In this document: one piece after another, positions 10,657-32,125 of the stretch | Layout of the letters: each line of letters opens with the position of its first letter | Numbering within the stretch: position 1 is the first letter of the stretch | DNA from: Ignavibacteriota bacterium | GTDB taxonomy: Bacteria > Bacteroidota > Ignavibacteria > UBA10030 > CAVZMI01 | Length of the DNA: 64,000 nucleotides | Assembly (NCBI GenBank): GCA_963776275.1 | Contig: CAVZMI010000007.1 | Coordinates: 1-64,000 of the forward strand | Direction of reading: 5' to 3' | The notes under the pieces: model-generated | Told to the model about the DNA's origin: nothing | Database searches by the model: none | The model's input: the letters and a program-made list of their open reading frames with translations, nothing else | Translations under genes and position numbers: made by a program

Positions 10657-10751
10657 CTGATGTATTGAAAAGAGCATACATGCAACATTCATTGGGATTC
10701 TTTCACAACTGTAATGCAATAATATATTGCAGCCATGATCGAGTTCATTAA

Positions 10752-14103: not shown

Positions 14104-14655
14104 ATGAAGCCATATAATTGTTGCAGAGTCTCAGTACTTATTCTGTTTCTTGTCGGATTCAGTACAAATCTTCTCACGAGTCAGATCATTCATCAGAGTA
14201 ACTTTCCTGAAACGCAAATGGATAAAACATTGCTGATCAAGTCATCAGGAATTGTGCAAAAAGAATGGGTTAACCAGGCCCGCTATGAGATACGACGCCG
14301 AGCAGTTGAAATAAATCGTATGATAATATCAACTACAACCGTTGACATTGGCAATAGATTAGAAATTGACCTCTTTGATGGAGCAGCATGCTTAGTTAAA
14401 TTGAATCGCGTCGTAGTTGATGTTAACAATGTTCTTTCGATGTCGGGAAGGATTGAAGGTACTCAGTATGGTTATTTTTACCTATCCACGAAAGACGGAA
14501 TATGCCTTGGGACTATAGAGGTAATCGAAAAACAAAAAAAGTATTTCATTACCTACGACAGGTCGTCATGTTCACATTACCTAACGGAGGTCGATCCGTT
14601 ACGTATCCAACATTTCGAGCATGCACCAACTTTAGTATCGCCAGATGGCGACTAA
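14104..14655 (+). CDS. Secreted protein resembling the pro-domain of reprolysin (M12-like) metalloproteases
   Basis: Signal peptide; RRRAVEIN...LEIDLFDG...SMSGRIEG pattern recalled from bacterial reprolysin N-termini (unverified family call). Confidence 0.5.
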   Translation: MKPYNCCRVSVLILFLVGFSTNLLTSQIIHQSNFPETQMDKTLLIKSSGIVQKEWVNQARYEIRRRAVEINRMIISTTTVDIGNRLEIDLFDGAACLVKLNRVVVDVNNVLSMSGRIEGTQYGYFYLSTKDGICLGTIEVIEKQKKYFITYDRSSCSHYLTEVDPLRIQHFEHAPTLVSPDGD

Positions 14656-17365
14656 GAAATCAATAGGAGTGATATTTACAAGAACAACAACATTAACTGG
14701 TATGATCTCGGTCATCGGGAAGCACATAATCATTATTGCCTTTTTGGTGTCCATAATTATAATTTCCTTCTTGATTGTTCTATTAAGGAGTATTGAAGAT
14801 CCATCAACCGAGATTCAGCAGCGCAGTAATATTTATCAAAATGCGGAACTGCGCGTTGAAATTATCCCATCTATTAGCAATACGTTTGGATATGACATAT
14901 GGCTTAATGGGAAGATACTCATCCATCAAACACACCCACCTGCACTGTCCGGGAGAGAAGGATTCAAGACAGAAGAAGATGCAAAAAGGATCGCTGAGTT
15001 TGTGGTGGAAAGAATTCGAAGAAATATGTTTCCGCCAACTGTTACAGTCGAGGAATTGGATTCATTAGAAGTTCATCTACCACTGAAAGGAGCAACATTC
15101 AAAATGACACTTAAGAGTGTTGTATTCACGCTCACGGTCTTATGTCTGTCTCATGATATCGTGGATGGTCAGGCAGCTTGGACACGAAAAGCAGATTTCG
15201 GAGGCAATTCAGGAAGTGGTATTGGTTTTTCCATCGGCAATAAGGGATACATTGCTGTTAGCCATCAAAAGGATTTTTGGGAATATGATCCATCTTCAAA
15301 TATCTGGACACAAAAAGCCGATTTCGGAGGCACCGCAAGATATGGGGCTGTCGGTTTTTCGATTGGCGATAAGGGATACATTGGAACTGGAAACGATGGA
15401 GCAGATCGAAAAGATTTTTGGGAATATGATCCGTCTTTAAATACCTGGACACAAAAAGCCGATTTCGGAGGCATCGCAAGACATGGGGCTGTCGGTTTTT
15501 CGATTGGCGATAAGGGATACATTGGAACTGGAAACGATGGATCATACTGCGAGGATTTTTGGGAATATGATCCAATAAATAATAACTGGTCAAAGAAACA
15601 CTCCTTCGGCGGCAGTATAAAAACTAGGGCTGTTGGTTTTTCCATCGGCAATAAGGGATACATTGGTACGGGCTTTGGTGATAGCGGAGATCAAAAGGAC
15701 TTTTGGGAATATGATCCGTCTTCAAATACCTGGACGCGAAAAGCAGATTTTGGAGGCACTGCAAGAGATGCTGCTGTTGGTTTTTCCATTGGCGATAAGG
15801 GATATATCGGTACAGGAATATATTCAACCGATTTCCACAACGTTGGTCAACAGAACGTATATGAAAAGGATTTTTGGGAATATGATCCAATAAATAATAA
15901 CTGGTCACAGAATCACCCCTTCGGAGGCAGTCCAAGAACTGGGGCTGTTGGTTTTTCGATTGGCGATAAGGGATACATAGGAATGGGTTTTGGAAGTGGT
16001 GTAGAGCAAAAGGATTTCTGGGAATATGTGCAGAGCAAACTGCCTGTACCAGAACAGGTTGAGCTTCTATATCCTCTGGATTCAGCTGATGTTGAAGTAG
16101 ATGCTCAAGAAACAAAGGTTCTCTTTAATTGGAATGAGACACATCCGGTGGTTATTAACTATGCGCTTGATATTTCCTCGGATTCTAATTTCAGTCCGAT
16201 TATCTTTAGCGATACATCGGTCCTTGGTACTTACCATGTGTCCGAAACTCTTGAAAACAACCAAAAATACTGGTGGAGAGTAAAGGCAAGAAATTTCGTT
16301 GGCTGGGGGCCTTATAGTGAGTCGCGTTCGTTTAACACCCTATTTGGAAATTATCCAGGCATTGATATTATGGTTGTCTATACCCCGGCTGAAGAAGTTT
16401 CGGCAGATTTCTGGGGCGGGATCGACCTCGTTATTGCGCAAGCAATGATGACGGCGCAAGAGGTAATCTATGGGAGCGGTGTAAACACGTCCATTCGTCT
16501 TGTTCACTCTGGCCTGATTAGTTACACCGAGAGCGGAGATGGACTATTAGATATAGATCGACTAACCAACACAAACGACGGATACATGGATGAGGTGCAT
16601 CAATGGCGGTATTCCTATGCTGCTGACCTTGTTGTCCTGCTTTGTAATACAGGCGGAATGGGATGGCTTCTGACAGATGTGAATGGTAGACCTGATCTTG
16701 GATTTTCTACCAGTGATGTTAATGGTGCATATCTAGATTACTCATTCATTCACGAACTTGGTCACAACATGGGTATGGAACATAGTCGCAACCAAAAGAT
16801 AAGACCAGCCCCCGCCCGGGGCGGATTATTTGAATTCTCCACAGGTTGGCGATGGATAGACAAGGATGGAGTAAAGTATGCTTCTGTGATGACCTACCCA
16901 GAGGATGCATTATGGGTACCAGTTTTTTCGAACCCAAGTATTTTGTGGGGAGAGGGTACTCCCGCGGGATCGTACGATCCCAATGACCCTTATGCTCCTG
17001 CAGATAACGCCCGCACCCTGAGAGAGATAAAGGATGTTATTGCAGGTTACAGTTCGAGACTCGCCCCAACGTTTGTTGAGCGTGACCCAACGCAAACTCC
17101 TGTAGAGTTTTCATTAGGCCAGAACTTTCCGAATCCGTTTAACGCATCGACGACCATTTCATTTAGTCTTCCATCGAAATCGTTTGCATCACTGAAAGTA
17201 TTTGATGTGATTGGAAGAGAGGTCGCAACAATTGTCTCGGAAGAATTGCCAGCAGGGAATTACTCGCGACAATGGAATGCGGTAAATATGACGAGCGGAA
17301 TTTATTTTTATCGTTTGCAGGCTGGTTCTTTTACTGAAACGAAGAAACTTATATTGCTGAGGTGA
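14645..17365 (+). CDS. Multidomain T9SS cargo: DUF4907-like, Kelch repeats, Fn3-like, M12-like zinc metalloprotease, T9SS CTD
   Basis: FGYDI...IHQ..P..G..GF.TEEDA; six W..KA.FGG..R.GAVGFSIG.KGYIG repeats; YWWRVKARN; HELGHNMGMEH metzincin motif; QNFPNPFN...YFYRLQAG. Confidence 0.82.
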   Translation: MATKKSIGVIFTRTTTLTGMISVIGKHIIIIAFLVSIIIISFLIVLLRSIEDPSTEIQQRSNIYQNAELRVEIIPSISNTFGYDIWLNGKILIHQTHPPALSGREGFKTEEDAKRIAEFVVERIRRNMFPPTVTVEELDSLEVHLPLKGATFKMTLKSVVFTLTVLCLSHDIVDGQAAWTRKADFGGNSGSGIGFSIGNKGYIAVSHQKDFWEYDPSSNIWTQKADFGGTARYGAVGFSIGDKGYIGTGNDGADRKDFWEYDPSLNTWTQKADFGGIARHGAVGFSIGDKGYIGTGNDGSYCEDFWEYDPINNNWSKKHSFGGSIKTRAVGFSIGNKGYIGTGFGDSGDQKDFWEYDPSSNTWTRKADFGGTARDAAVGFSIGDKGYIGTGIYSTDFHNVGQQNVYEKDFWEYDPINNNWSQNHPFGGSPRTGAVGFSIGDKGYIGMGFGSGVEQKDFWEYVQSKLPVPEQVELLYPLDSADVEVDAQETKVLFNWNETHPVVINYALDISSDSNFSPIIFSDTSVLGTYHVSETLENNQKYWWRVKARNFVGWGPYSESRSFNTLFGNYPGIDIMVVYTPAEEVSADFWGGIDLVIAQAMMTAQEVIYGSGVNTSIRLVHSGLISYTESGDGLLDIDRLTNTNDGYMDEVHQWRYSYAADLVVLLCNTGGMGWLLTDVNGRPDLGFSTSDVNGAYLDYSFIHELGHNMGMEHSRNQKIRPAPARGGLFEFSTGWRWIDKDGVKYASVMTYPEDALWVPVFSNPSILWGEGTPAGSYDPNDPYAPADNARTLREIKDVIAGYSSRLAPTFVERDPTQTPVEFSLGQNFPNPFNASTTISFSLPSKSFASLKVFDVIGREVATIVSEELPAGNYSRQWNAVNMTSGIYFYRLQAGSFTETKKLILLR
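15178..16030 (+). repeat. Intragenic tandem repeat (~141 bp Kelch units, six copies)
   Basis: Units starting ~15305 and ~15446 are nearly identical at the DNA level. Confidence 0.85.
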
Positions 17366-17796: not shown

Positions 17797-19176
17797 TTGC
17801 TCTGTAATATTGGTAAAGAACAAAAGCATAAAGAGGTTTTAACATATGCAATATGTCGCTTAACAAAAAAAGAGAATGAACTTGATAAAGATAAATATTA
17901 TTATGATTTGGCAACGATGAAATATTCTTTAGCTGATCTTTTATATGAAAACAAAATTATGGATTTTATTGACAATAAAGAATATGCTGATATTAGAAAG
18001 AATTATGAAAAAGTTACTACAAATGATTTGAATCATTTCTTATGTGCAAGGACAAATACTGCAAATTTATTTGAAAAATATGGAAGAAATTTTGAAGCAA
18101 TTTTTGCTTATGATTCAGTGCTAAAACATGACCCCAATTTTGGTATGGCTTTAGGAAATAAAGCCAAAGCTCTCATCTATTATTTTAGATTATCACCATA
18201 TAAATCTTTAAGGCTTTTGAATTTTGCGAAAGAACTGCTTAAAAAAGCAGTTAAAGACCAAAGAATAATCGAGATTGTAGGTCAAGCCGCACTAGATATT
18301 TTTAAATATGAACTTGAAAAGATAAGGAAATACCTAAAAAAGAATAACTATAATGAAAAAAAGCATCAGCCTCATTCAATAAATGCATACTATAAATTTG
18401 TTTTAGAAAACAATTTGTTCCTGAATTATGATTTTGGATTTTATTATGATGACTTAAGTTTAGAGGATAGCTTTTTTCCAAATCTCATTGAGAATATTCA
18501 TGACGAAAAGCATCCAAATAATCCATGGATTTCAAATAAAATATATATTTGTTTTCAAACTTTTAATCAGATTTTAGAAGATTATGTTTCATCTCGTTTT
18601 CTGTTTTATCAATCCCTATCATTGAATTACTCAAAATTAGATCGTAGAGTTGCTTTCATCTATTTGCTTGATTATACAAAGAATTCAACTAAATTTGGTA
18701 TTCTTAAAAAAGTATTCGCTAATATTTATAATTGTTTGGATAAATTGGCACAGATAGTTTTATTTTATTTTGATATAATTAAAACTGATCAAAATGACAT
18801 TTATTTCCATTCATTAATAAATGAACAATTAAAAAAAATTATAATTTCCGAAAATAACTATCAATTATTAGCGTTATTAAATTTAGCTTATGATTTTCAA
18901 GAAAGCTATCCGTATTATAAATATAGGTTGCTAAGAAACAGAATTACACATTCTTTTATGAATATTAATTCAGGCATATTATATAATAATGTAAACTGCG
19001 AGTATGAATTCTTAGAAGAAGAATTAATTAAATACTGTAAAGAATTGTTTCTAATAACCAAGGCTGCGATAATGTATTTTATTTTATACTTTATACACAA
19101 TAAGCGTAATGATGACGGAGATGATAAGAAATTAATTATAAGCATGGAAGCTACTATGCAAAGAGATGTTTATTAA
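17797..19176 (+). CDS. TPR plus LA2681-like HEPN domain protein (candidate RNase defence/Abi effector)
   Basis: TPR segment (YGRNFEAIFAYD...ALGNKA), LKKVFANIYNCLDKLA and the Rx4H motif RNRITH. Very AT-rich. The frame stays open upstream to an AGGAG at 17632, so the real start may be ~17638-17647. Confidence 0.75.
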   Translation: MLCNIGKEQKHKEVLTYAICRLTKKENELDKDKYYYDLATMKYSLADLLYENKIMDFIDNKEYADIRKNYEKVTTNDLNHFLCARTNTANLFEKYGRNFEAIFAYDSVLKHDPNFGMALGNKAKALIYYFRLSPYKSLRLLNFAKELLKKAVKDQRIIEIVGQAALDIFKYELEKIRKYLKKNNYNEKKHQPHSINAYYKFVLENNLFLNYDFGFYYDDLSLEDSFFPNLIENIHDEKHPNNPWISNKIYICFQTFNQILEDYVSSRFLFYQSLSLNYSKLDRRVAFIYLLDYTKNSTKFGILKKVFANIYNCLDKLAQIVLFYFDIIKTDQNDIYFHSLINEQLKKIIISENNYQLLALLNLAYDFQESYPYYKYRLLRNRITHSFMNINSGILYNNVNCEYEFLEEELIKYCKELFLITKAAIMYFILYFIHNKRNDDGDDKKLIISMEATMQRDVY

Positions 19177-19476: not shown

Positions 19477-20373
19477 ATGGATACAACGGTTGAGTTTAAA
19501 ATGGATTTTCACTCTGATTGGACTGCAATGTTGAAGTCCGCTTTGCAGGAATTGGGCTATGTTGTCGATCCGAATCTCGATCCCAGTAACATTTCAATAA
19601 CATATTTCAACCTACAAAGACGACGTATTTCTGCATCTCCGAGAAAATTGTTCGTATCAAGAGAATTCACTTGCCCTACAAATCTTGACACGGGGCTCGA
19701 CCTAATCAAGAATAAGATAAAGATAGGTGACGATCTATTCCCCCATCAGAGTACTCGTCTTAATGATCCTAACTATAATGATCCCTTGTTAAATGATTGG
19801 GACATTCACCACTTGCATCTAGGAACAGTAGTCCAAACCAGTGGATTTGTTGAACGAACAGGACCTGTACTTTTTGCAAGGATTACCGAGGATTCCTTTT
19901 ATATGATTGATGTATTAGATCATGGATCCGGACTTCAACCATGGGTTAAAAGGAGATTGATTGAGATCATTCATTCGAATTGGCCGGAGTCTATCGCTCA
20001 ATATCGTATCAAAGGGATCCTTAGTGTGGAATTTAATCCGTCAGACGAAGAGATTGGGAAATTGAGAAAATCTAACCTAAACTCGACGCTGCAAATGGAT
20101 GATGGTACAATCTATGCTCCTCCAGGGGGAGGTTTTACGACTTCTGGATCTAGTGTCGAAGCCGTATTAACTACAAACAAATACACTCATCTTATTCGAA
20201 ACATCGAAAAATTTATACGGGACAACGTCGATAACCTAATCTTAGATGCCGCAAAAGCTGGAGTGACAATAGGCCCGAGACTTGATTTCAAGATGATCGA
20301 ACTTAGAAATGAATCTGTGACGATCGTGGACACTAATACGGGATTTGCGTTCAGATTCCCGATTCAGAATTGA
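19477..20373 (+). CDS. Hypothetical cassette protein with DWDIHHLHLG motif
   Basis: Long ORF with a GGAAGG RBS before ATG 19477; His-rich motif; bounded by a 23-bp inverted repeat. Confidence 0.7.
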   Translation: MDTTVEFKMDFHSDWTAMLKSALQELGYVVDPNLDPSNISITYFNLQRRRISASPRKLFVSREFTCPTNLDTGLDLIKNKIKIGDDLFPHQSTRLNDPNYNDPLLNDWDIHHLHLGTVVQTSGFVERTGPVLFARITEDSFYMIDVLDHGSGLQPWVKRRLIEIIHSNWPESIAQYRIKGILSVEFNPSDEEIGKLRKSNLNSTLQMDDGTIYAPPGGGFTTSGSSVEAVLTTNKYTHLIRNIEKFIRDNVDNLILDAAKAGVTIGPRLDFKMIELRNESVTIVDTNTGFAFRFPIQN

Positions 20374-20574
20374 TTTTCTGATTGGCCTTAGGTGCAAACC
20401 AACGGCGCATAATACGCGTGGTTACATCGCTTATACGTTTGCCGAGCTAAATTGAACCAAAACGAATATATAATAGTGTTCGCTTTTATGTAAAAAAGCA
20501 AATTAATGATATAGATTTTGGGAGCATATTTACCTTTTCAAAGATTACATAATTGACAGCAGACTCAATCGTTT

Positions 20575-20775
20575 AAATCAAGCTTTTATCAGCAGGCAGT
20601 GCTGCACCAGGCTTGAGTGCGAGACGCTGCATTTCTTTTATCAGATTATAAATATATGTGGGCACGCAGTCTCAATTAGAGCAGATATTCCACGATGAGC
20701 GGAAACTGCAGCGAACTCTAAGCGTTGCCCACTAATTATTATATTATCACGATTGAATGCTGTTGATGTCGTGTA
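20575..20775 (-). ncRNA. Predicted bridge/seek RNA of the IS1111-type element
   Basis: Hairpin 20660-20730 has an internal loop carrying UAGAGUUCGCU and AUUGAG, which match the two sides of the insertion site. A second hairpin ~20578-20616 carries AUAAAAG, matching the element end. RNA limits are approximate. Confidence 0.65.
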
Positions 20776-21840
20776 TTATTGGACTACAGATACCACGTAT
20801 GGCTGTTGATTTTTCAACACAAAGCGTATACGATTTAACAGTTTTCGAGCAATACGGATAATTGCTTGATTCTTCGGCATACGCTTCGCTAATGTCGTAA
20901 ATGCCAGAAGCAGTGCCGGGTCTTTTCTGACAGCGATCCAGGCACTTTCAATCAATGCCGAGCGCAGTATCGCGTTCTGACGACGGGTTATTCCAGTAGT
21001 GATCTCCCGATCTCCGCTGGAATGTTCGCCTGGAATCATGCCGACGTACGATGCCAATTGATCAAGGTTTTTGAAACGATCGAGCGTTACAAGTTCTGTT
21101 AAAAATGTCATTGCCGTCAATATACTGATGCCGGGGATGGTAATGAGATTGCAGACATGAACATGATATCGTTCTTCACGTGCTAATGATCGGATTGAAT
21201 TTGTCAGCTGAAGTATACATTGTCGAAGGTGGAAGAGCTCATCGAGCAATATCCTTAGCGATTGATTCCCGCTGTCATGCTCTAATGAAATACTCTGAAG
21301 CCATGTGATAAATCTTCGGGTCCAGTTGTAAGCGTTTAGATTCTCTGGAATCGTGATTCCATAAAAACTTAGAAGTGCTTTTATCTGATTCTTACAGCGC
21401 GTTTGCTTGTTGACCAGGAATTGACGCGTTCGAACCAGTGAACGATCTTCGAGAGCGATGCGAGAAGGGATATAAATTGAATGCAGGTCGCACGAGCGCA
21501 GACTTCGTGCAAGTTTACGAGCGTCAATGCGATCGGTTTTGTGACTCGATTCTTTATTGGTTGTCGGAACATCAGCAGGATTAACGACCAGACAATCGAT
21601 GCCCTGGTTTGCGAGTTGATCGTGGATCCAAAAACCCCAACGACCGGCTTCGTAAACACAGTGGTAGTGAGCACCAGGAAAATTGCGCTTCAAGTAGCTG
21701 ACCAGCACATGAACCAAGGGTGGCTGGGTGAATGTTTTGTGTTCGACATGTTCTGTGAAGATCGAAACCTTCCAGCTGGTTTTACCGGTGTCGAGACCGA
21801 TATAGATGTGCTGATTGGCGAAATTAGGCGTAGTATTCAT
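20776..21840 (-). CDS. IS110-family DEDD transposase/recombinase
   Basis: IGLD, YEAG and KTDRIDA catalytic residues; IPGI, LASYVG..P.EHSSG and IARKL motifs. Confidence 0.95.
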   Translation of the reverse strand: MNTTPNFANQHIYIGLDTGKTSWKVSIFTEHVEHKTFTQPPLVHVLVSYLKRNFPGAHYHCVYEAGRWGFWIHDQLANQGIDCLVVNPADVPTTNKESSHKTDRIDARKLARSLRSCDLHSIYIPSRIALEDRSLVRTRQFLVNKQTRCKNQIKALLSFYGITIPENLNAYNWTRRFITWLQSISLEHDSGNQSLRILLDELFHLRQCILQLTNSIRSLAREERYHVHVCNLITIPGISILTAMTFLTELVTLDRFKNLDQLASYVGMIPGEHSSGDREITTGITRRQNAILRSALIESAWIAVRKDPALLLAFTTLAKRMPKNQAIIRIARKLLNRIRFVLKNQQPYVVSVVQ

Positions 21841-22027
21841 TTGAGACCTCGTGTTGTGGCTATATGTTACTTTCACTAAATTATACACAGATTATTTTCA
21901 CTGTGCTTTTTTAACATAAGGTCTCAATACCGCCACGGTGCAGGTATTGAATGAGTCATTTGCAATATCCCGTAGCGGTACTGCGTAACCACGCGACACG
22001 TTATGTGAAAATGGCCGCACACATCAT

Positions 22028-22056
22028 TTGATTTAAACCCGATACAATCGTAACTT
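22028..22056 (+). promoter_or_regulatory. Putative promoter of the restriction endonuclease gene
   Basis: TTGATT-N17-TAACTT inside the cassette. Confidence 0.4.
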
Positions 22057-22103
22057 GGAAACCGAACGATGCAGTCAGAATCCCCAACCAAACAAAGGAT
22101 GAT

Positions 22104-22748
22104 ATGAAAAGATCAACCCTGCTTGATCAAAAGTATGTCAACCCTAAAGTTAAACTCCCTTATAATCTCACGGTTGACGAGGTAAAAAAAGCTGTATCTG
22201 AAACATATCGATTATTCAATGGTGTTAACAATTTTCTCAAGACAAGCGGTTTCCGCCCGCTCGAAGAATTGCTACTTGGAAACTCGCTTTCTGGAATACT
22301 ATCAGAGTTTCTCGTGAAGAACATCGCAAAGGTATCCCACTCGCTCGTTGCGAATCTCAAGGTAGGCGGTCATCCAGATTTGTTGCCCGAAGGGTATTAT
22401 TCCTCGAACCTTATTCTCAAAGGCGAGGAAGGTATCGAAGTAAAGTCTTCAATTCAAAGAGGAGGCTGGCAGGGACATAACCCAGAAAAATGCTGGTTAA
22501 TGGTTTTCCGTTACGTAGTCGGAAAGCAAGATGACGAGGAAATTGTTCCGTTGAAATTCGTAGAGATTCTGTGTGCTAAGCTAACGAAGAAAGATTGGTC
22601 ATTTTCTGGTCGCAAAGGCGCATCGAGACGAACTCCAACCGCATCAATCACGACATCTGGTGTAGAAAAGCTGCGAAGTAATTTTCTTTACAGATTGCCG
22701 GACTATGGGATCGGCAAGCACCAAAATATTTTAGCTCAACACAAATAG
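22104..22748 (+). CDS. Putative type II restriction endonuclease (PD-(D/E)xK)
   Basis: HPDLL...IEVKSS motif; convergent with and overlapping a DNA methyltransferase gene. Confidence 0.7.
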   Translation: MKRSTLLDQKYVNPKVKLPYNLTVDEVKKAVSETYRLFNGVNNFLKTSGFRPLEELLLGNSLSGILSEFLVKNIAKVSHSLVANLKVGGHPDLLPEGYYSSNLILKGEEGIEVKSSIQRGGWQGHNPEKCWLMVFRYVVGKQDDEEIVPLKFVEILCAKLTKKDWSFSGRKGASRRTPTASITTSGVEKLRSNFLYRLPDYGIGKHQNILAQHK

Positions 22749-23978
22749 GTCTTCTTGCGATTCGACCAATGCCTCTGGAATTGATACACTGCCACCGTTG
22801 GTTGTTGGCAAGACTGCGAGTCGCGGAATTGCTTTCACCGCAATTCGATAAAACTCAGGATCTGATTCGATCCCAATACTCCTGTAACCGACAGCGCAAG
22901 CAGCAGCAATCGTTGAGCCTGCTCCCATGAACGGATCAAGAATGATACCTTGACCAAGCGGCAAGGCTGCCCTTACAATCTGGCGCATAAAAGCTTGTGG
23001 TTTCAATGAAGGATGCGGAGCGATCTCTCGCTCGCCTGTTCTCGTCGGAGAACTTTTAATTACATCGCAGAACGGCTGATTGTCTGAAACCCGATGTAGT
23101 CCGCCTGTTTTCCATTTGCGCAGGTTATCTTGAACTCGACCTTCACACGGCTTTCTAAAAAGGCCCCAAGGTTCCCAACAGGAACGGGGCATAACAGTTA
23201 CATCACTGAATTCTTTGTGTGCGTTCTTTGGCCTGTCTCCACCACGAAGCGTTTGAACCAAGCGAATAATTTCTCCACGCTTCTCAAATCCAGCTTGCTC
23301 GATCGCGTCATACACTATATGAGAGAGCAATGGATTGGTGGCAATGAAAATGTGCCCACCGGGGACAAGAACTTTGTGGGCCTTTTTTGCCCAGTCCAAA
23401 AAGAATCGTTTCAACTCATTCTTCTCTTCTTGGTTGAGCACTGTGAATCTCGGTAAGGGTTGTCGTTCATATCCATCAAGTTTCGGTGGAATTCGCCAGA
23501 CTCCACCATTACCGTTTCGGAGTTTGGCCTTTTCAGTCGATGTGTATTCCTTCAACCCATAAGGTGGATCGGTCACAATTGCGTGGATGCTATTGCTCTT
23601 TCGTTCATCGAGCCATTTAAAACAATCTTTTTGCTCCAATTCATAGTGAGCCTTGTGTGCGGTTGAGACGGCTTTACCGTACTCTCTGAAGGTCTCTCGG
23701 AGAACGGCTGGCGCCGTTACGGGATTTGTATACAATATCTTTTCAATGTCTGAGGGAAGATACCCGGCAAGTATGCCAAGTTTCGTTGAATCCAGTTTGA
23801 GCAACTTTGCAAGTTTCTTAACCATTGTCACTGACGGGACGGTTTTACCGGACTCAATACGAGACATATAGCCTTTTGTGACTTTCAGCCGGGAACTTAG
23901 TTGAGACATAGGTAAATTCAGGTGTTTTCGTTGTTGTCTTACCGCTTCACCGAATTCGATTGTATGAATGGATTTCAT
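22731..23978 (-). CDS. XRE-HTH-fused N4/N6 DNA methyltransferase (beta class)
   Basis: N-terminal HTH (MSQLSSRLKVTKGYMSRIESG); TDPPY precedes HPSLKP and LDPFMGAGST. Confidence 0.88.
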   Translation of the reverse strand: MKSIHTIEFGEAVRQQRKHLNLPMSQLSSRLKVTKGYMSRIESGKTVPSVTMVKKLAKLLKLDSTKLGILAGYLPSDIEKILYTNPVTAPAVLRETFREYGKAVSTAHKAHYELEQKDCFKWLDERKSNSIHAIVTDPPYGLKEYTSTEKAKLRNGNGGVWRIPPKLDGYERQPLPRFTVLNQEEKNELKRFFLDWAKKAHKVLVPGGHIFIATNPLLSHIVYDAIEQAGFEKRGEIIRLVQTLRGGDRPKNAHKEFSDVTVMPRSCWEPWGLFRKPCEGRVQDNLRKWKTGGLHRVSDNQPFCDVIKSSPTRTGEREIAPHPSLKPQAFMRQIVRAALPLGQGIILDPFMGAGSTIAAACAVGYRSIGIESDPEFYRIAVKAIPRLAVLPTTNGGSVSIPEALVESQEDLFVLS

Positions 23979-24006
23979 AGCTAGATTCCTTTCGATTCCG
24001 ATGGAT

Positions 24007-24037
24007 AATATAATACAGTTTACCAAATTAGTCAACT
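24007..24037 (-). promoter_or_regulatory. Methyltransferase promoter with overlapping palindromic operator
   Basis: TTGACT-N17-TATATT on the minus strand, overlapped by the AGTTTAC-N7-GTCAACT inverted repeat. Confidence 0.55.
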
Positions 24038-24162: not shown

Positions 24163-24369
24163 GAAATGTTCAAGTAAAAAAAAGCCATAAAAGCGATACC
24201 AAAAATAAATATTCAAACAAAATTATCAATGTATACAAATTGGAATGAAATCAGTGCTGTCCAAAATAGATTATTATAAGTTGATAATCCCTTCAAATAT
24301 GTTGCTTAAGGTATAAGTATTTCGATCTATAAATTGGGGCCATAGAACAAAAATGGCCATTTCCATAAT

Positions 24370-24575
24370 AAATAATTCCTTGATGACAAAATCGCTGGCG
24401 TGTAGCGGGAAGAAGGGAGGCCGTGTGTTGGCGCAATTTCGTGTGTTTCGATCGAGGCTTATAAAAGCTATCGACTGAATATCTCTTAGATTAAAGGCCG
24501 AGATCGACGGACTCGAATGTGCCATCTCAACAGCGCGTGCTGGTGGCCATCTCACGTGGGTTGCGATTTTGTCAG
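24370..24575. repeat. MITE-like element, copy 2
   Basis: Reverse-complement homolog of 5351..5640 with TGACAAAATCGC/GCGATTTTGTCA ends. Confidence 0.7.
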
Positions 24576-24737
24576 GCTTTCTTTCTGTCCCTTTCTTTCC
24601 AGAAAGAAAGGGACAAAATACTCTTGCTCTTTCTGCGATGTATTATGGACAAGTCTGAAATGAAATAATATATAAGAAGAATTTTAGCAGGAAAAGAAGG
24701 TTGTAAAAAGCATACTAAACTTACCAGCTGTCGAAAC

Positions 24738-24766
24738 TTGCATTTTCTCCAGTACTTCCTTACGTT
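24738..24766 (+). promoter_or_regulatory. Repeated sigma70-type promoter, copy 2
   Basis: TTGCAT-N17-TACGTT, 45 bp upstream of the CotH gene. Confidence 0.75.
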
Positions 24767-24811
24767 CCTACATATTGAGAGGCAACCGATATACAAATTG
24801 AGGGAGATTGT

Positions 24812-27800
24812 ATGTATCATCGAGGTATGACATTTCTGTATTCGGCCATTTTATTAATTGCATCATGTTCGATTGTCTTATCACAACAAGTTTTGGACGA
24901 GCCGACTTTTTCTTCAGAGAGGGGATTTTACGCAAATAAATTTACATTGGAGATCGCATACAATTCCCCCGGAGCAACCATTAAATATACCAGAGATGGA
25001 ACAAACCCATATACATCATCGACAGCTAAAAATCAATCTTCACCGGCTATTCTCACCATCGATCCGACAGATACACTGGATAGGGATCGGGCACCGGGTG
25101 TTGTAATAAGGGCCTGTGCCGTGAAGGATGGAATACTGTTGACGAAAGTAGCGACTCATACATTTTTATTCATTGATAAGATAGAAGAACTTTCTCCTGA
25201 TAGCAAAAAGCCGGGGCCCTCCTGGCCTAACCCGAATCCCGGCACACAATTTACACAACAGGGGATGGACTACGGTATGGATCCCGACGTCCTGCATGAC
25301 CTTCGATACCGGAATAAAATTAAAGATGCATTGTTATCCATTCCGACCATTTCGCTGGTCACCGATCTGAAGAATCTATTTGATCCGGACTCGGGGATTT
25401 ATATGAACGCGCTTCCTCACGGTCGTGAGTGGGAAAGGCAAACATCCGTCGAGTTATTGAATCCGGACGGGACCACCGGTTTTCAAATTGATGCCGGCCT
25501 GCGCATCCGTGGGGCATGGGGAAGAACCGGAATTAATTTTAAACATGCCTTCCGTCTTTTTTTCAGAAAAGAATATGGTGAAGCAAAATTACGCTATCCC
25601 TTGTTCGGAGATGAAGGAGTGACGGAATTCGACAATGTCGATCTCAGAACAAGCCAGAATTATTCCTGGGCTTTCTACGGCGACCCTGAAGGTCGGAAAA
25701 ATACAGAACTCCGGGAAGTTTTTTCCAGGGATACACAAAGAGATATGGGACAGCCTTACACGCGAAGCCGCTATTATCATTTATATATCAACGGCACCTA
25801 TTGGGGACTCTATCAGACTCAGGAAAGATCTGAAGCCTCTTTTGGTGCATCATATTTAGGCGGTTCCAGTGCAGACTATGATGTCATAAAAGTCAACGTC
25901 ACAGACAGCCTGAGTATTCCCAATTATCATATTGAAGCCACCGATGGTAATTTAGATACCTATCAACGACTCTGGGAAATGGCCACAGCCGGTTTTAATA
26001 CCGATGAATCCTATTACAGCGTACAGGGCCTGAATCCCGACGGCTCAAGAAATCCTGAATACCCCATCCTGGTAGATATAGATAATCTGATCGATTTCAT
26101 GCTCTGTACCATCTATGTTTGTGACCCCGATCGTTCGTACAGCCGGTGGAATCCCAAACAATTTCTACGGGTTATACGACAGAAATGGGGATCGGGGTTT
26201 CGTTTTTTTCAGGCACGATGCGGAACACAGTCTCATGTACCCCGAGGTCGACAATACTGTTCAGACGAGCATCGGTATGGAGTTCAGACATTTCAATCCT
26301 CGATGGCTGCATCAACGACTCAGTTATCATCCCGATTACCGTCTTAAATTTTTCGACCGTGTATACAAACATTTATTCAACAACGGTGCTCTGACGCTCC
26401 AGGCTTGCCGGAACCGGTTTCTGGATAGAAAACAACAAATGGACGAAGCTATTATTGCCGAATCGGCCCGTTGGGGAGATGCACATTCCGATATTCCCAG
26501 AACAAGAGACGACGACTGGCTGCCTGAAGTAAATTGGGTTGTCGATCAATTCTTTCCCACGCGCGTAGATAATATGCTGAAGCAATTAAGAGCTCAGAAA
26601 TTGTATCCCGATTTCAATCCGCCTGTTTTTAATCTGACGGGCGGCAAAGTCTCAAAGGGAACAGTCCTTACCATAGATACAACAGAAGGCCCCGTCTATT
26701 ATACGGTGGATGGGAATGATACCCGCATGCCTTCGTCGCTGCAGAAATCATATCAAACAATAGTGGTTCCACGAAATGCGGAAAAACGCGTTCTTGTTCC
26801 TGTTGCTAAAGTAGACATTAAATGGAGATATGATCTCAAATTCAACGATGCTTCATGGACGTTGTGCAACAATTCTCCGGGTGGTATCGGATATGATCTT
26901 GGATCTAAATATGACGATCTGATATCGTTCGACATTAAAAAACAAATGTATAATGTGAACAGCACGTGTATGATTCGAATCCCTTTCGAAGTGACCCAGG
27001 AACAACTGAATGATTTTAGTTATATGACGCTACGAGTGCAGTACGATGATGGATTTATTGCATATCTCAATAATAGTAGCCCGATACTGATTCGAAATTT
27101 TTCCGGTGGCGTCAACTGGAATTCTACTGCCAACAAGACGAATGACGGTAAATTCATCGAGTCTATTGACATCACCCCATATTTATCGAAACTCGTTCCA
27201 GGTAAGAATCTGCTCGGGATTCAAGCCGTGAATATTGCTCCCGCAGACTCTGATTTTCTTATATCCGTCGAATTGATTGCGGGAAATCCCGTGAAATCCA
27301 GCAGTCCCATTTCACCCAGTGCAATTGCCTATAAGGGACCTATAACGATAGACCATACAACCAAAATTAAAGCTAGGGTCTATAAGGATGAGAAGTGGAG
27401 TGCACTCAACGAGGTTGCCTTATGGGTACCTGAAGGAAATGACAATCTGAAAATATCGGAGATCCATTACCACCCGCTGGGCGAAGAAGGGATCGATGAA
27501 AAGGAGTTCGAATTTATAGAACTTAAAAATGCGGGTACGGCATCGCTCAATTTGAGCGGAATGACATTTTCAAAGGGAATAGAATATACGTTCCCCTCAG
27601 GGACAATCATCGAGCCCGACTCTTTTCTCGTTCTGGCATCCAATGCCCAAGTATTTGAGACCCGTTATCCATTTGCTCCCGATGGCGAATATAACGGACA
27701 ACTGGATAATGGAGGAGAAACCATTATTTTACAGACGAGCAAAGGTGATACAATTATTAATCTGACATACGACAATAATTATCCATGGCCTCACTCACCG

Positions 27801-28214
27801 GATGGATCGGGGTATTCTCTTGTCCGTAAGCCGGAGAGATTATACGACGATGAGAATGATCCTTCCGGCTGGTGCAGCTCTGTCTATATACACGGGAATC
27901 CGGGCTTTAATAACGACGCCGATTCGGTCTTTCGAAAAGAAATAATCCCCGGTAAATTCCGTCTTCTTCAAAATTATCCCAATCCATTCAATCTATTGAC
28001 GATAATTTCATTCAGTCTTCCATCACGGTGTTTTGTGACTTTGAAAGTATTTGATCTGATTGGAAGAGAAGTGGCAACTATCGTCTCGGAAGAACTGTCA
28101 CCCAATACCTATATACGACAATGGAATGCGAAAGGTTTGGCAAGCGGAATCTATTTCTATCAGCTTCGAGCGGGGAATTATATTGAAACCAGGAAATTAG
28201 TTTTACTAAAGTAA
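24812..28214 (+). CDS. CotH-kinase family protein with Fn3-like and lamin-tail domains and T9SS CTD (frameshift near 26125-26140)
   Basis: IKYTRDGTNP, GLRIRG, HLYINGTYWGLY...ER, AESARWGD, ISEIHYHP...EFIELKN and QNYPNPFN, across ORFs 24812..26347 and 26115..28214. Confidence 0.8.
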
Positions 28215-30406: not shown

Positions 30407-32125
30407 ATGTCGAAGCGAACTTGGATTTTATTGACTTATGGATTGATCATTGCTGCTGTCGAATTTCCAGCGGCATTTGTTCAGGCTCAGACTGACACAA
30501 TTCGGGTGGTATGTGTCGGCAACAGCATCACAGAAGGATACACCACCGCAAATACACTGACCGACAGCTATACTGCCCAGCTTGGAGTATTGCTCGGAAG
30601 CGGGTGGAACGTGAAAAATTCCGGAGTATCCGGACGCACAATGCTTAAAAACGGCGACTTCCCGATCTGGAATGAACAAAAATTCAAGGACGGCCTCGCC
30701 TTCAATCCCAATATTGTGACCATATGTCTGGGAACAAACGACACCAAACCATGGAACTGGGATGATCATAAAGGTGAATTCATCGGCGACTATAACGCGA
30801 TGATCGATACGTTCAGGTCGCTCCCAAGTCATCCGGTCATCTGGCTCTGTCTTCCTCCTCCATCCTTCAGCGATGCATTCAGTATCCGGGATTCGGTTAT
30901 CAATGCCGACATCATTCCGATGATCCAACAAATTGCAGCCAATAAAGAATGCCAGATTATCGATTTCAACACGCTGTTGAAGAGTCGCTCCGACATCGTC
31001 CCCGATGGAATTCATCCCAACGCTGCCGGATTGACGATGATGGCTAAATTACTCTATGAAAAACTCACCGGCAATACAATCACAACTGTGAATGACGAGA
31101 ATTGCGCCGCAGGAAAAACCGTAAGCGTAAGCGGATCGATCGATTCGCTCGTGTACGGCGGAGCGAACCTGGTCGACGGTAAAAGTACGACGCAATGGAT
31201 TACACTTGGATTCCCCGCAGAGGCGACCATCGATCTCGGCTCGACTCAGATCGTGGATCTATTCAGGGTCGATTTCACCGGAACGCGCGAATCAAATGCG
31301 GGTTATCAATTTCGCATTGAAACTGAGTCGGCAACAGCCGGATGGATAACGGCGCTCGATCGCACAACACGTACCGACTCGGCGGCTACAATACTTGAAA
31401 AGACAGATTCCATCCTAGCGCGGTTCGTGCGTCTCACAGTCACAGGCGCCGCCCGGCCAAGAGGCGATACAGTAAGCATAGCCGAAATCCGCGTACTGAA
31501 AGCAAACGGAGGGGCACACTCACCTGTAATTTCATTCAAAAAGACAGGTGCCTCGGGTTCGAATATAAAATATGACATCAAATTCCAGTGGCCAAACGGC
31601 GCCGTAGGAAAAGTAATTCCGTATCGTCATAAAAATGTGGGGGGACTCGATGCTGTCAGAGGTTTCATGGATGGAAGTACGTACACAATAACCAGTGAAT
31701 ACATCAAAACGGTAAATTACAATGTCTATTACGCCGAGACATTTCTTAATGGAATTGAGGTAATCTCAGATACAACGGTAATCGGTGCCCTTCCGACTGG
31801 AATCAAAGAAATAGAATCGCCCGAAATGCCGTCGGAAATCCAGCTCCTGCCATCCTATCCCAATCCATTCAATCCGTCAACGACGATTTCATTTATACTT
31901 CCATCAAAATCATTTATTACGCTTAAGATTTTTGATGCACTAGGAAGAGAAATTACGACACTATTTTCGGGACAGCTGCAGGCAGGATTTCATTCACGGC
32001 AGTGGAATGCGGTGAATATGGCGAGCGGCGTTTATTTCTATCGTTTATCCGCCTTTCCTTTGGAAAGTAGAGACAGGCAGTCTGGCAATTATATCGATAC
32101 AAAAAAACTCGTTTTATTACGATGA
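30407..32125 (+). CDS. SGNH/GDSL esterase with F5/8-type (discoidin) domain and T9SS CTD
   Basis: VGNSITEG, GVSG, LGTND and DGIHPN blocks; ARFVRLTV; YPNPFNP. Confidence 0.85.
   Translation: MSKRTWILLTYGLIIAAVEFPAAFVQAQTDTIRVVCVGNSITEGYTTANTLTDSYTAQLGVLLGSGWNVKNSGVSGRTMLKNGDFPIWNEQKFKDGLAFNPNIVTICLGTNDTKPWNWDDHKGEFIGDYNAMIDTFRSLPSHPVIWLCLPPPSFSDAFSIRDSVINADIIPMIQQIAANKECQIIDFNTLLKSRSDIVPDGIHPNAAGLTMMAKLLYEKLTGNTITTVNDENCAAGKTVSVSGSIDSLVYGGANLVDGKSTTQWITLGFPAEATIDLGSTQIVDLFRVDFTGTRESNAGYQFRIETESATAGWITALDRTTRTDSAATILEKTDSILARFVRLTVTGAARPRGDTVSIAEIRVLKANGGAHSPVISFKKTGASGSNIKYDIKFQWPNGAVGKVIPYRHKNVGGLDAVRGFMDGSTYTITSEYIKTVNYNVYYAETFLNGIEVISDTTVIGALPTGIKEIESPEMPSEIQLLPSYPNPFNPSTTISFILPSKSFITLKIFDALGREITTLFSGQLQAGFHSRQWNAVNMASGVYFYRLSAFPLESRDRQSGNYIDTKKLVLLR

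What the first reader, a model, noticed from the sequence alone, without database searches (positions are those of the whole stretch)
20483..21924. IS1111-type IS110 element whose bridge-RNA guides can be read directly and match the attC-like site it interrupts
Seen: removing the element (one CT retained) restores TAGTGTTCG-CT-CAATAC and rejoins two perfectly complementary attC arms. The non-coding region 3' of the transposase (minus strand, 20730 to 20660) folds as stem GGGCAACGC/GCGUGCCC, an internal loop and an inner stem. The left loop strand UAGAGUUCGCU matches the left target plus core at 10/11 positions. The right loop strand AUUGAG is the reverse complement of core plus right target (CTCAAT). 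A second hairpin (~20578-20616) carries AUAAAAG, complementary to the element end CTTTTAT. Established: IS110/IS1111 recombinases use bridge/seek RNAs with such loops, and some IS1111 elements target attC sites. Inference: a naturally programmed RNA-guided recombinase that parasitises this cassette system, and a candidate new bridge-recombinase ortholog.
Basis: partly seen in the sequence, partly recalled or inferred. Interest (0 to 1): 0.82.

Follow-up and report, generated by a model that had tools for sequence, protein, structure and literature searches.

The report
RNA-guided IS1111 element inside attC-like site
This is an intact insertion sequence of the IS1111/IS110 family whose own non-coding RNA carries short guide sequences matching the DNA on both sides of where it sits, inside a gene-cassette recombination site; the mechanism is already known, so this is a well-supported new example and not a new kind of system.

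Summary
A 1,440-bp element (20485-21922, with CT at both junctions) encodes a 354-aa DEDD/IS110 transposase on the minus strand. It has sub-terminal inverted repeats and a 291-nt non-coding region 3' of the gene.

That region holds a target-binding internal loop (20733-20659). Its 5' strand equals left flank plus CT at 10/11 positions. Its 3' strand AUUGAGAC is the reverse complement of GT+CT+CAAT.

In 18 related elements from other genomes and metagenomes, both loop strands covary with their own flanks (0 of 200,000 permutations for each strand). The RNA helices show compensatory changes in 14 of 23 pairs. A second, donor-binding loop matches both element ends and also covaries.

The interrupted site belongs to a family of about 160-nt attC-like sites in this genome. 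These sites lie in cassette arrays, two of them next to an IntI-like recombinase. The one other, truncated copy and the three closest metagenomic relatives use the same target half-site.

Everything matches published seekRNA/bridge-RNA biology, including known attC-targeting IS1111 elements. RNA expression and mobility remain untested.

The parts
20483..20484 (.). CT core dinucleotide at the junction next to the transposase-distal end (RE in transposase orientation)
   Evidence: a second CT at 21923-24 and one CT in the restored target
20485..20500 (-). Sub-terminal inverted repeat at the RE (TTTATGTAAAAAAGC on +). On the minus strand it holds a -35-like TTGCTT facing the circle junction.
   Evidence: TTGCTT, 17 nt, TATGTT across the abutted ends; the same layout in 16 of 16 relatives with both ends
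20547..20579 (-). 3' strand of a candidate closing helix that encloses both loops (approximate limits)
   Evidence: self duplex mean -20.1 vs non-self -13.5 kcal/mol; 0 of 100,000 permutations; self is best in only 5 of 16 rows
20576..20650 (-). Donor-binding loop module. The 5' strand (20644-20631) is followed by inner stem GCAG(20630-27)...CUGC(20595-92), then the 3' strand UG-AUAAAAG.
   Evidence: (helix 4: 9 pairs, 6 with compensatory change, 98% paired). The fold alone is not significant.
20583..20589 (-). Right-donor-guide-like AUAAAAG, identical to the RE end plus core (ATAAA+AG in transposase orientation)
   Evidence: 7/7 here; relatives with RE ends ATAGCAG or ATAAGAG carry the matching guide
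20631..20644 (-). 5' strand of the donor loop (CUGAUAAAAGAAAU). Its 5-mer AAAGA matches the reverse complement of the first LE bases (AAGGT) at only 3/5.
   Evidence: relatives score 4-5 of 5 in 10 of 16; sum 55 vs permuted mean 39.6; 0 of 100,000
20659..20733 (-). Target-binding loop module (short seekRNA equivalent, 75 nt): outer stem, internal loop, inner hairpin
   Evidence: (z = -3.38)
20710..20720 (-). 5' guide UAGAGUUCGCU. It has the same sense as window + strand left target plus CT, so it would pair with the minus strand.
   Evidence: 10/11 to its own flank; 11/11 to the flanks of relatives L045 and L047
20669..20677 (-). 3' guide AAUUGAGAC. It is the reverse complement of GT (element end) + CT + CAAT(T), so it would pair with the + strand.
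20743..20772 (-). 5' strand of the candidate closing helix. It overlaps a sigma-70-like site, TCAACA-17-TATAAT (20766-20738).
   Evidence: The promoter match is consensus only (6 found vs 3.9 expected in the region).
20776..21840 (-). Transposase gene, 354 aa (ATG at 21840; stop at 20776-78). The ORF tool's GTG start at 21888 is probably too early.
   Evidence: (closest relatives are 354 aa)
21905..21922 (-). LE sub-terminal inverted repeat (GCTTTTTTAACATAAGGT on +). On the minus strand, TATGTT forms the -10-like half of the junction promoter.
21923..21924 (.). Second CT core copy
20407..20482 (+). Left half of the interrupted attC-like site: GCATAAT, then arm CGCGTGGTTAC, then the conserved centre ending ...ATAGTGTTCG
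   Evidence: (nhmmer E = 7e-17)
21925..22006 (+). Right half of the attC-like site: CAATACCGCCACGG...CCGTAGCGGTA inner hairpin, arm GTAACCACGCG, then ACAC-GTTATGT
   Evidence: (E = 1.4e-28)

Best explanation
The element is an intact IS1111-group member of the IS110 family.

Proposed cycle. The DEDD/serine recombinase excises the element as a circle with RE and LE abutted on a single CT. The abutted ends create a promoter, TTGCTT-17 nt-TATGTT. This promoter would transcribe the transposase gene and the downstream non-coding region.

The RNA. The non-coding region gives a bridge/seekRNA of about 160 nt (possibly about 220 nt with a closing helix), built from two internal loops.
- The target loop pairs its 5' strand (UAGAGUUCGCU) with one DNA strand of left target plus core. 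It pairs its 3' strand (AUUGAG, continuing AC) with the other DNA strand of core plus right target.
- The donor loop does the same with the two element ends. AUAAAAG matches the RE side. A weaker 5-mer matches the LE side.

The target. The programmed sequence, (T/A)AG(A/T)GTTCG-CT-CAAT, is the conserved centre of a family of about 160-nt attC-like sites that separate gene cassettes in this genome. The element therefore lands in cassette recombination sites, antisense to the cassettes, and splits the site.

Shown here: anatomy, family membership, guide-flank and helix covariation, and the nature of the target family.

Inferred from published family members and not tested here: RNA production, RNA binding by the protein, circle formation, and present-day mobility.
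For: Family membership.
- Pfam DEDD_Tnp_IS110 (E = 4.6e-17) and Transposase_20 (E = 1.7e-21).
- NCBIfam NF033542, 218 bits against a cut-off of 140.
- IS621 recombinase 8wt6 at E = 2e-11, with aligned IGLDTGK/IGIDTAK, VYEAG/CIEAT, KTDRIDAR/KTDTVDAR and HSSG/YESG.

This copy's guides. 10/11 and 8/8 matches, on opposite strands of one internal loop.

Position-anchored guide test. 18 related elements were parsed. One representative per target class was permuted.
- 5' guide: own-flank identities sum to 96 of 110 in 10 classes. Permuted mean 51.0, sd 6.3, maximum 88; 0 of 200,000 reach 96.
- 3' guide: 87 of 110 in 11 classes. Permuted mean 52.1, maximum 79; 0 of 200,000.

Natural re-programming among close relatives. 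The elements with 83-86% identical transposases keep the 5' guide, but the 3' guide changes with the left flank. L045 has CCAUGGAGAC against flank CCATGG-AG-AC.

RNA helices. 23 consensus pairs, 14 with compensatory changes. 94.3% of cells are paired against 31-50% when partners are slid. 0 of 500 shuffles reach the observed value.

Donor loop. The RE-side guide tracks RE variants (123 of 126; 44 of 100,000 permutations). The LE-side 5-mer scores 55 of 80 against a permuted mean of 39.6 (0 of 100,000).

Junction promoter layout is present in 16 of 16 relatives that have both ends.

Target family.
- blastn and MAFFT of the restored site found 9 further sites.
- An nhmmer profile gave 26 hits, in arrays on contigs C23, C32 and C22. 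ORFs are co-oriented and start directly after each site.
- The outer arms and the inner stem differ in sequence but stay complementary.
- ssDNA fold of the restored site: z = -7.0 (bottom strand) and -4.0 (top strand).

Other insertions.
- The truncated second copy (C18; 91% identity over 196 nt) abuts ...GTGCTCG|CT at the same position of an attC-like left half.
- The own-genome attC profile hits the flanks of 2 of the 3 closest relatives and 0 of the 45 other loci.

Published match.
- NCR downstream of tnp, the top-strand-complementary segment lying 5' of the bottom-strand one, short 70-100 nt and long 145-170 nt RNAs, a junction promoter, and attC-targeting ISKpn4/ISPst6/ISPa25 (PMC11187229: sections 6, 9 and 13, and passages).
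[quoted passage not shown] A bridge RNA is predicted in the RE of 93% of IS1111s (PMC11208160 passages).
Against: - No RNA data were available. No public run on record as RNA holds the element.
- No Rfam family matches, so the RNA call rests on my own alignment.
- In this copy the LE-side donor guide matches only 3 of 5.
- In this copy the 5' target guide has one mismatch to its own site.
- The donor hairpin folds no better than shuffles (z = -0.35).
- There is only one full copy, and the genome has no unoccupied site within 2 mismatches of the guide-encoded 16-mer. Present activity is therefore unproven.
- Several permutation sets include relatives that share element ends, so the donor-loop tests are not independent. 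Two LE-side guides were mis-parsed and scored 0.
- Boundaries of single-copy relatives were set from the inverted-repeat motif, with a register freedom of 1 nt.
- The recombinase next to the arrays scores below the integron-integrase cut-off and lacks profile positions 181-234.
Confidence: 0.88

Rival explanations
1. The element is of this family, but this copy is a stranded or decaying one that no longer moves. The guide matches record a past insertion and not a working system.
For: - One full copy plus one 196-nt remnant in 3.7 Mb.
- The best unoccupied sites have at least 3 mismatches in 16 to the guide-encoded target, and the best one inside an attC-like site has TT instead of the CT core.
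- The LE-side donor guide matches 3/5, against 4-5 of 5 in most relatives.
- The donor hairpin is thermodynamically unremarkable.
Against: - The 354-aa frame is open and full length, with all aligned catalytic motifs.
- Both inverted repeats, both CT junctions, the RE-side guide (7/7) and both target guides are intact.
- Published work shows some mismatch tolerance.
Confidence: 0.3
2. The interrupted repeat is not an integron attC. It is another kind of structured intergenic repeat or recombination site, for example the substrate of a Xer-like recombinase or a REP-like element. On this reading 'parasite of a cassette system' overstates the case.
For: - No protein in the genome reaches the TIGR02249 cut-off (best 237.7 against 265).
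- The two best candidates lack profile positions 181-234. From recall, that is where the IntI-specific insertion lies.
- The recombinase genes point the same way as the arrays.
- The sites are long (about 160 nt) with a conserved centre.
- The window's own cluster has no recombinase nearby.
Against: - The sites end in ..ATAAC and GTTA.. boxes, with sequence-variable but complementary arms.
- They lie between short co-oriented ORFs, and the next ORF starts right after each site.
- They form arrays of 8, 5-6 and 2-3 sites. Two arrays begin 2-3 kb from a tyrosine recombinase whose best NCBIfam family is the integron integrase.
- From recall: integrons whose integrase has the same orientation as the cassettes are described in some phyla.
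Confidence: 0.2
3. The loop-flank identities are not RNA guides. They are DNA-level features such as protein-recognised repeats or sequence captured from targets, and the non-coding region acts as DNA.
For: No transcript evidence is available for this element. The same sequences necessarily exist as DNA.
Against: - Compensatory changes keep the helices that frame the loops (14 of 23 pairs). That pattern is expected for an RNA or single-strand structure, not for duplex protein sites.
- The two loop strands match opposite DNA strands in the staggered way solved for IS621 (PMC11208160 passages).
- seekRNAs from the same position co-purify with four IS1111 transposases and are required and re-programmable (PMC11187229 abstract, section 9 and passages).
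Confidence: 0.03

Closest known systems
ISKpn4 / ISPst6 / ISPa25 / ISPa21 (IS1111-attC group; Tetu & Holmes 2008 and Post & Hall 2009, known to me only through citations in PMC11187229 and PMC3001079)
   Same: - IS1111-type layout.
- Inserted in attC sites of cassette arrays, antisense to cassette transcription.
- A seekRNA downstream of tnp with segments matching both target strands.
   Different: - Those elements are proteobacterial. They target 'one end' or 'near the 5' end' of certain attC sites.
- This one sits 76 nt into a roughly 160-nt site, in its conserved centre at the foot of an inner hairpin.
- All plasmid-borne relatives are about 34% identical or less over most of the protein.
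- Whether this element belongs to that monophyletic subgroup could not be tested, because no reference sequences were in reach.
ISEc11 (IS1111 family, experimentally re-programmed seekRNA)
   Same: - Size: 1,443 bp against 1,440 bp here.
- sTIRs, a downstream NCR, a junction promoter, and short and long RNA forms of comparable length (PMC11187229).
   Different: ISEc11 uses a short linear target. No sequence comparison was made here.
IS621 / ISCro4 bridge recombinases (IS110 group; PDB 8wt6, 9t56)
   Same: - DEDD RuvC-like domain plus a serine-bearing C-terminal domain.
- A two-loop RNA. In each loop the 5' side pairs with one strand and the 3' side with the other, and the CT core is included in every pairing.
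   Different: - The RNA is encoded 3' of the gene, not 5'.
- The sTIRs are long.
- Relative to the transposase gene, the order of top- and bottom-strand matches is reversed.
- Protein similarity is weak (E = 2e-11, in two stretches).
ISPa11 / ISPpu9 / ISPpu10 (REP-targeting members)
   Same: They target a repeated, potentially folded intergenic element present in many copies per genome.
   Different: The target class differs (REP against attC-like). This comparison rests only on abstracts and listings.

Membership tests
IS110 family (RNA-guided DEDD transposases) | N-terminal DEDD RuvC-like domain (PF01548) and C-terminal PF02371 domain with a conserved S/T-G | tested here: met
   - both Pfam domains are over their cut-offs.
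- NF033542 at 218 bits, cut-off 140.
- the D, E, D..D and SG motifs align to IS621.
- GMIPGEHSSG fits the G(L)-P----S(t)G motif quoted in PMC11187229 section 6, with M in place of L.
IS1111 group | Sub-terminal inverted repeats of 7-17 bp | tested here: met
   TTATGT-AAAAAAGC and its complement GCTTTTTT-A-ACATAA, 14-15 nt with one indel, set 3-4 nt in from the CT cores. The same motif is found in relatives.
IS1111 group | Longer non-coding region downstream of the transposase gene | tested here: met
   291 nt downstream (20485-20775) against 82 nt upstream (21841-21922).
IS1111 group | In the seekRNA, the top-strand-complementary segment lies 5' of the bottom-strand-complementary one (transposase orientation) | tested here: met
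   In transposase orientation, the 5' guide is complementary to AG+CGAAC(A/T)CTA on the top strand. The 3' guide is identical to ATTG+AG and so complementary to the bottom strand.
IS1111 group | Circular intermediate with abutted ends that creates a promoter | not testable with these tools
   Sequence only. The abutted ends would give TTGCTT-17 nt-TATGTT. 16 of 16 relatives have a TT(G/T)NNN hexamer 16-17 nt from TATG(T/C)T. No read data show a junction.
Bridge RNA / seekRNA | Internal loop whose two strands match the two flanks on opposite DNA strands, and covary with them | tested here: met
   (0 of 200,000 permutations for each strand).
Bridge RNA / seekRNA | Second loop matching both donor (element) ends | tested here: met
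   the RE-side guide is 7/7 here and tracks RE variants. The LE-side 5-mer covaries across relatives but is only 3/5 in this copy. Helix covariation is (helix 4).
Bridge RNA / seekRNA | The RNA is made and bound by the transposase | not testable with these tools
   No RNA holder was listed for the element. No Rfam model matched.
IS1111-attC subgroup | Transposase falls in the monophyletic ISPa21/ISPst6 clade | not tested
   - No reference sequence was obtainable. PMC2447020 is not held.
- Two Klebsiella plasmid hits that I examined are not in integrons.
- All plasmid hits are below 60% identity, and the best full-length ones are about 31-34%.
IS1111-attC subgroup | Inserted near one end of the attC, antisense to cassette transcription | tested here: inconclusive
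   The antisense orientation is met: tnp lies on the minus strand and the cassette ORFs on the plus strand. The position is not met: insertion is 76 nt from one end and 82 nt from the other.
Integron attC site | Imperfect inverted repeats with ..AAC / GTT.. boxes, structure conserved more than sequence, at the 3' end of promoterless cassettes in arrays | tested here: met
Integron attC site | Associated canonical IntI integrase with its family-specific insertion | tested here: not met
   The best TIGR02249 score is 237.7 against a cut-off of 265. Profile positions 181-234 are unmatched. The two copies lie beside the arrays on C22 and C23.

The most novel reading that the evidence does not exclude
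A lineage of IS1111 elements from the Ignavibacteria/Bacteroidota-like world, about 34% identical or less to any plasmid-borne relative, has independently been re-programmed onto cassette recombination sites. It aims at the conserved, hairpin-flanked centre of unusually long attC-like sites. Those sites belong to a cassette system whose recombinase lacks the integron-integrase signature insertion. Its RNA also has a covarying closing helix that encloses both loops. If so, attC parasitism by RNA-guided IS elements would be convergent, and the clade would supply new compact recombinase/RNA scaffolds with about 20 naturally re-programmed guide sets.
Probability: 0.4. Interest if true: 0.5.

Novelty: new member of a known kind. 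Interest (0 to 1): 0.35.

Why it matters
- It adds a cleanly delimited natural bridge/seekRNA recombinase from a phylum-level group poorly represented among studied IS110/IS1111 elements. It comes with a set of relatives whose guides and targets can be read off directly. That set is useful for ortholog mining and for learning the loop register rules of the IS1111 branch.
- It shows that an apparently non-canonical cassette array system in this genome is a target of such elements. This both marks these repeats as real, recurrent recombination-type sites and shows one way they get inactivated.
- It does not open a new mechanism.

Tried and rejected
Searches that found nothing.
- Rfam found nothing relevant in 19500-23000 at E up to 1. 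The only match was a chance rliB hit outside the element. It found nothing in the whole window at gathering scores.
- The search for related loci with the single protein found no relative in genome contigs. I then used the genome search at order level and metagenome contigs.

Analyses abandoned or corrected.
- A whole-NCR local-match test of flanks against the non-coding region was too noisy, with chance matches of 6-9 nt, and one RE was mis-set. I replaced it with a position-anchored test.
- Several regex parses were wrong. The RE search by ungapped repeat failed. L012's 5' guide was mis-parsed. The outer stem was taken for the inner stem. These were corrected. In one search the LE-side guides of L012 and L053 are still mis-parsed, score 0, and were left in the count.

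Loci left out of the guide tests.
- L017: the contig ends before the RE.
- L018-L022 (42-45% identity) and L023-L028 (32-40%): their loops have a different scaffold. By eye they also match their flanks, but they were not scored.
- L029-L032 and L037: broken or distant.
- L033-L044: extra copies of the same elements, used only for boundaries.
- L050: the same element as L049.
- L052 and L055: different scaffold.
- L048 was dropped from the 5' guide permutation because its flank is cut by the contig end.

RNA evidence. The look-up of sequencing runs listed no RNA holder and only one DNA run, with a 0.13 share of words. I did not lay reads.

Literature.
- PMC2447020 (Tetu & Holmes) is not held.
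Supplementary Figs 6-7 of PMC11187229 (long seekRNA folds; ISKpn4, ISPst6 and ISPa25 RNAs) and Supplementary Table 5 and Extended Data Fig. 10 of PMC11208160 may already show a donor loop or a closing helix for IS1111 members.

Other.
- To find reference attC-targeting elements I examined two Klebsiella plasmid hits. Both lie next to iutA, not in integrons, so I dropped the phylogeny.
- The sigma-70-like site at 20766-20738 is not claimed as a promoter: 6 sites were found against 3.9 expected, and it is not conserved by eye in L045 and L046.
Full report
**What is there**

Window 20483-21924 holds a compact mobile element. On the + strand the left junction reads ...ATAATAGTGTTCG|CT|TTTATGTAAAAAAGC. 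The right junction reads GCTTTTTTAACATAAGGT|CT|CAATACCGCC....

The ends carry imperfect sub-terminal inverted repeats, TTATGT(T)AAAAAAGC, set a few bases in from the CT. The only long frame runs on the minus strand. From the ATG at 21840 it gives 354 aa, the length of its closest relatives.

- The protein matches Pfam DEDD_Tnp_IS110 and Transposase_20.
- It matches NCBIfam NF033542 'IS110 family RNA-guided transposase' at 218 bits against a cut-off of 140.
- It aligns to the solved IS621 and ISCro4 recombinases (E = 2e-11 and 1.7e-9). The Asp, Glu, Asp..Asp and Ser-Gly motifs line up.
- The non-coding stretch is 82 nt upstream of the gene and 291 nt downstream. Together with the inverted repeats, this is the IS1111 layout described in PMC11187229 (section 6) and PMC11208160 (passages).

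**The RNA and its guides in this copy**

The minus-strand transcript of 20735-20657 folds into an outer stem, an internal loop and an inner hairpin. Energy is -30.3 kcal/mol, z = -3.38, and 0 of 200 shuffles fold as well.

- The 5' loop strand UAGAGUUCGCU (20720-20710) has the sense of the + strand left target plus CT and matches it at 10 of 11. It is the only other occurrence of that 11-mer at up to 1 mismatch in the window.
- The 3' loop strand AUUGAGAC (20676-20669) is the reverse complement of GT+CT+CAAT, the right junction. It is the only other exact copy of that 8-mer in the window.

So one loop strand would pair with one DNA strand left of the core, and the other loop strand with the opposite DNA strand right of it. 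Both include the core. This is the geometry described for IS621 (PMC11208160 passages). Read in transposase orientation, it is also the 'top-strand match 5' of bottom-strand match' order reported for IS1111 seekRNAs (PMC11187229 section 9).

Downstream lies a second module, about 20650-20576. Its 3' strand AUAAAAG (20589-20583) equals the RE end plus core. Its 5' strand carries a 5-mer that matches the first LE bases at only 3 of 5. Folded alone, this module is no better than shuffles (z = -0.35; 72 of 200).

**Is it more than chance? Relatives**

The transposase family is common.

- 4,832 proteins at E up to 1e-20 among 8,000 scored candidates. The nearest non-self protein is 87% identical. 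Source names include Ignavibacteriales and Bacteroidota assemblies.
- 25 of 201 genomes of the same order, this one included, have a match at E up to 1e-30.

I fetched 30 loci plus 7 extra copies from those genomes and 12 metagenome loci. Boundaries in four multi-copy elements were fixed by comparing copies. They agree with a simple rule: core AG, then 4 nt, then TATGTT at the LE; ACATA, then 1-2 nt, then AG at the RE.

For 18 elements that share this loop scaffold, I extracted the loop strands at homologous positions and compared each with every element's flanks. I then permuted with one representative per target class.

- 5' strand: matches to its own right flank plus core sum to 96 of 110. 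Permuted mean 51.0, sd 6.3, maximum 88; 0 of 200,000 reach 96.
- 3' strand: matches to its own left flank plus core sum to 87 of 110. Permuted mean 52.1, maximum 79; 0 of 200,000.

Examples:
- The five-copy element of G113 has UAUGUCAUUCCU against flank AG-GAATGACAT (11/11), and UUCGCCAGAC against TTCGCC-AG-AC.
- L053 has GACAGGCCCU against AG-GGCCTGTC.

The nearest relatives of the window element are L045, L046 and L047, at 86, 83 and 69% protein identity. They keep the 5' guide and the right half-target, CGAAC(A/T)CT. Their left flanks differ, and their 3' guides differ accordingly. Within this group alone the signal is weak: 2 of 24 permutations reach the observed sum.

A 17-sequence alignment gives a consensus structure of 23 pairs, 14 with compensatory changes. 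On those pairs, 94.3% of cells are standard pairs, against 31-50% when partners are slid by 1-3 columns. 0 of 500 shuffles reach the observed values for four of the five measures; for the fifth, further standard pair types, 4 of 500 do.

The donor module also covaries.
- Elements whose RE ends in ATAGCAG or ATAAGAG carry that heptamer in the loop. The sum is 123 of 126; 44 of 100,000 permutations reach it.
- The LE-side 5-mer follows the LE: AAAAT, AATAC, ACGAT, ACCGA and so on. The sum is 55 of 80 against a mean of 39.6; 0 of 100,000.
- Caveats: many elements share the same ends, and two parses failed.

The 40 nt before the first module and the 50 nt after the second can form a duplex in every element. 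Self mean is -20.1 kcal/mol and non-self mean -13.5; 0 of 100,000 permutations reach the observed sum. Self is the best partner in only 5 of 16 rows. A closing helix is therefore likely but only modestly supported.

Abutting the ends gives TTGCTT-17 nt-TATGTT here. All 16 relatives with both ends have the same layout, with 16-17 nt spacing. This fits the junction promoter reported for the family (PMC11187229 passages).

**The target**

The restored site is one of a family. blastn of the restored site against the genome found nine further sites. Aligned, they share the following, in order:
- a ..CATAAC box;
- a sequence-variable arm;
- a conserved centre that contains AT(A/T)G(T/A)GTTCG(C/T)TCAAT;
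- an inner stem whose two sides change together (for example ACCGCCACGG/CCGTAGCGGT against CCCGCGCCGG/CCGGCGCGGG);
- the complementary variable arm;
- a GTTA.. box, followed by a ribosome-binding site and the next ORF's start.

A profile of these sites gives 26 hits in the genome: eight in a row on C23 (220.5-233.7 kb), five or six on C32, and two or three on C22. Short co-oriented ORFs lie between them, and ORFs begin right after each site.

The C23 and C22 arrays each start 2-3 kb downstream of a nearly identical tyrosine recombinase gene. Its best NCBIfam family is the integron integrase, but it scores 237.7 bits against a cut-off of 265, and profile positions 181-234 are unmatched. I therefore call the sites attC-like.

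As single-stranded DNA the restored site folds well: z = -7.0 for the bottom strand and -4.0 for the top strand. The insertion point lies at the foot of the inner hairpin, 76 nt from one end and 82 nt from the other.

The element is antisense to the cassettes, as reported for the known IS1111-attC group (PMC3001079 passage). That group, however, inserts near one end of the site (PMC11187229 passage).

**Other copies**

The genome holds one more piece: 196 nt of the RE at 91% identity, on C18. It abuts ...ATTGTGCTCG|CT. In the alignment this falls at the same position of an attC-like left half.

The own-genome site profile also hits the flanks of L047 (E = 6.5e-5) and L046 (E = 5e-4). It hits none of the other 46 loci searched.

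No unoccupied site in the genome lies within 2 mismatches of the guide-encoded 16-mer. The best site inside an attC-like repeat is C32:6868, with 3 mismatches, one of them in the core. This may explain the single copy.

**Comparison with what is known, and verdict**

- seekRNAs downstream of tnp in IS1111 members, including the attC-targeting ISKpn4, ISPst6 and ISPa25 (PMC11187229).
- Bridge RNAs with target and donor loops, predicted in the RE of 93% of IS1111s (PMC11208160).

What is particular here:
- the host group;
- the distance from studied elements, with all 1,029 plasmid records that match below 60% identity and the best full-length ones at 31-34%;
- the central position of the target in a long attC-like site;
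- the non-canonical recombinase beside the arrays.

Whether the lineage reached attC targeting independently could not be tested. I could obtain no reference sequence of the IS1111-attC group.

RNA production, circle formation and mobility are inferred and not shown. No RNA run holds the element, and Rfam has no matching family.

I rate this a new member of a known kind. It is of moderate interest as a naturally annotated ortholog set, and low surprise for a specialist.

Noticed in passing
G000 contigs C23:235648-236583 (-) and C22:9512-10336 (+); arrays at C23:220527-233707, C22:13014-14314, C32:244-12099: There are two nearly identical IntI-like tyrosine recombinase genes. TIGR02249 scores 237.7 bits, below the 265 cut-off, and profile positions 181-234 are unmatched. 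The C22 copy has a different C-end. Each gene is followed, in the same orientation, by an array of the roughly 160-nt attC-like sites with short co-oriented ORFs. This may be a cassette system with a non-canonical integrase.
   Followed up: partly
window 1514-4967 (-): The methionine synthase gene looks split into two overlapping frames. Frame 3435-4967 holds S-methyl_trans plus Pterin_bind positions 1-161. Frame 1514-3580 holds Pterin_bind 162-244, the B12-binding domains and the activation domain. This suggests a frameshift or an assembly error near 3435-3580.
   Followed up: no
window 10588-10662, 24698-24772, 36540-36582, 42354-42421, 44962-45069: A conserved motif of about 35-70 nt (TTGCATTT..GTAATT.CTTACGTTCTGA) recurs upstream of several + strand genes. 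It may be a shared promoter or leader. There is no Rfam match.
   Followed up: no
window 5351-5645 and 24365-24575: Two intergenic stretches form long-range inverted repeats, with 82-85-nt arms that are 82-88% complementary. Their nature is unknown, and no Rfam family matches.
   Followed up: no
window 22104-24035: The cassette-like unit after the interrupted site holds an unknown 214-aa ORF (+) and a convergent HTH-fused N6/N4 DNA methyltransferase (-). This looks like a restriction-modification pair carried between two attC-like sites. A LA2681-type HEPN protein is at 17797-19176.
   Followed up: no
window 14645-17365, 26115-28214, 30407-32125, 33086-35962, 37804-39903, 53690-55795: Several large secreted proteins share a type IX secretion C-terminal sorting domain. 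Por_Secre_tail was confirmed for 14645-17365. The others share the same DNA repeat (families D4/D8). This points to a Bacteroidota/Ignavibacteria-like host.
   Followed up: partly
window 20738-20766 (-) and 20465-20494 (-): There are two sigma-70-like consensus sites. One (TCAACA-17-TATAAT) ends 5 nt before the target-loop module. The other is a hybrid, with its -35 in the RE end and its -10 in the flanking attC half, reading outward. Both are consensus matches only.
   Followed up: no
L013, L034, L038-L040 (G113) and L054: A five-copy relative in one complete genome, and a 49%-identical metagenomic element, both target the same sequence, TTCGCC-AG-GAATGACA, with matching guides. Distant transposases thus share one target, as reported for ISKpn4 and ISPa25.
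   Followed up: partly
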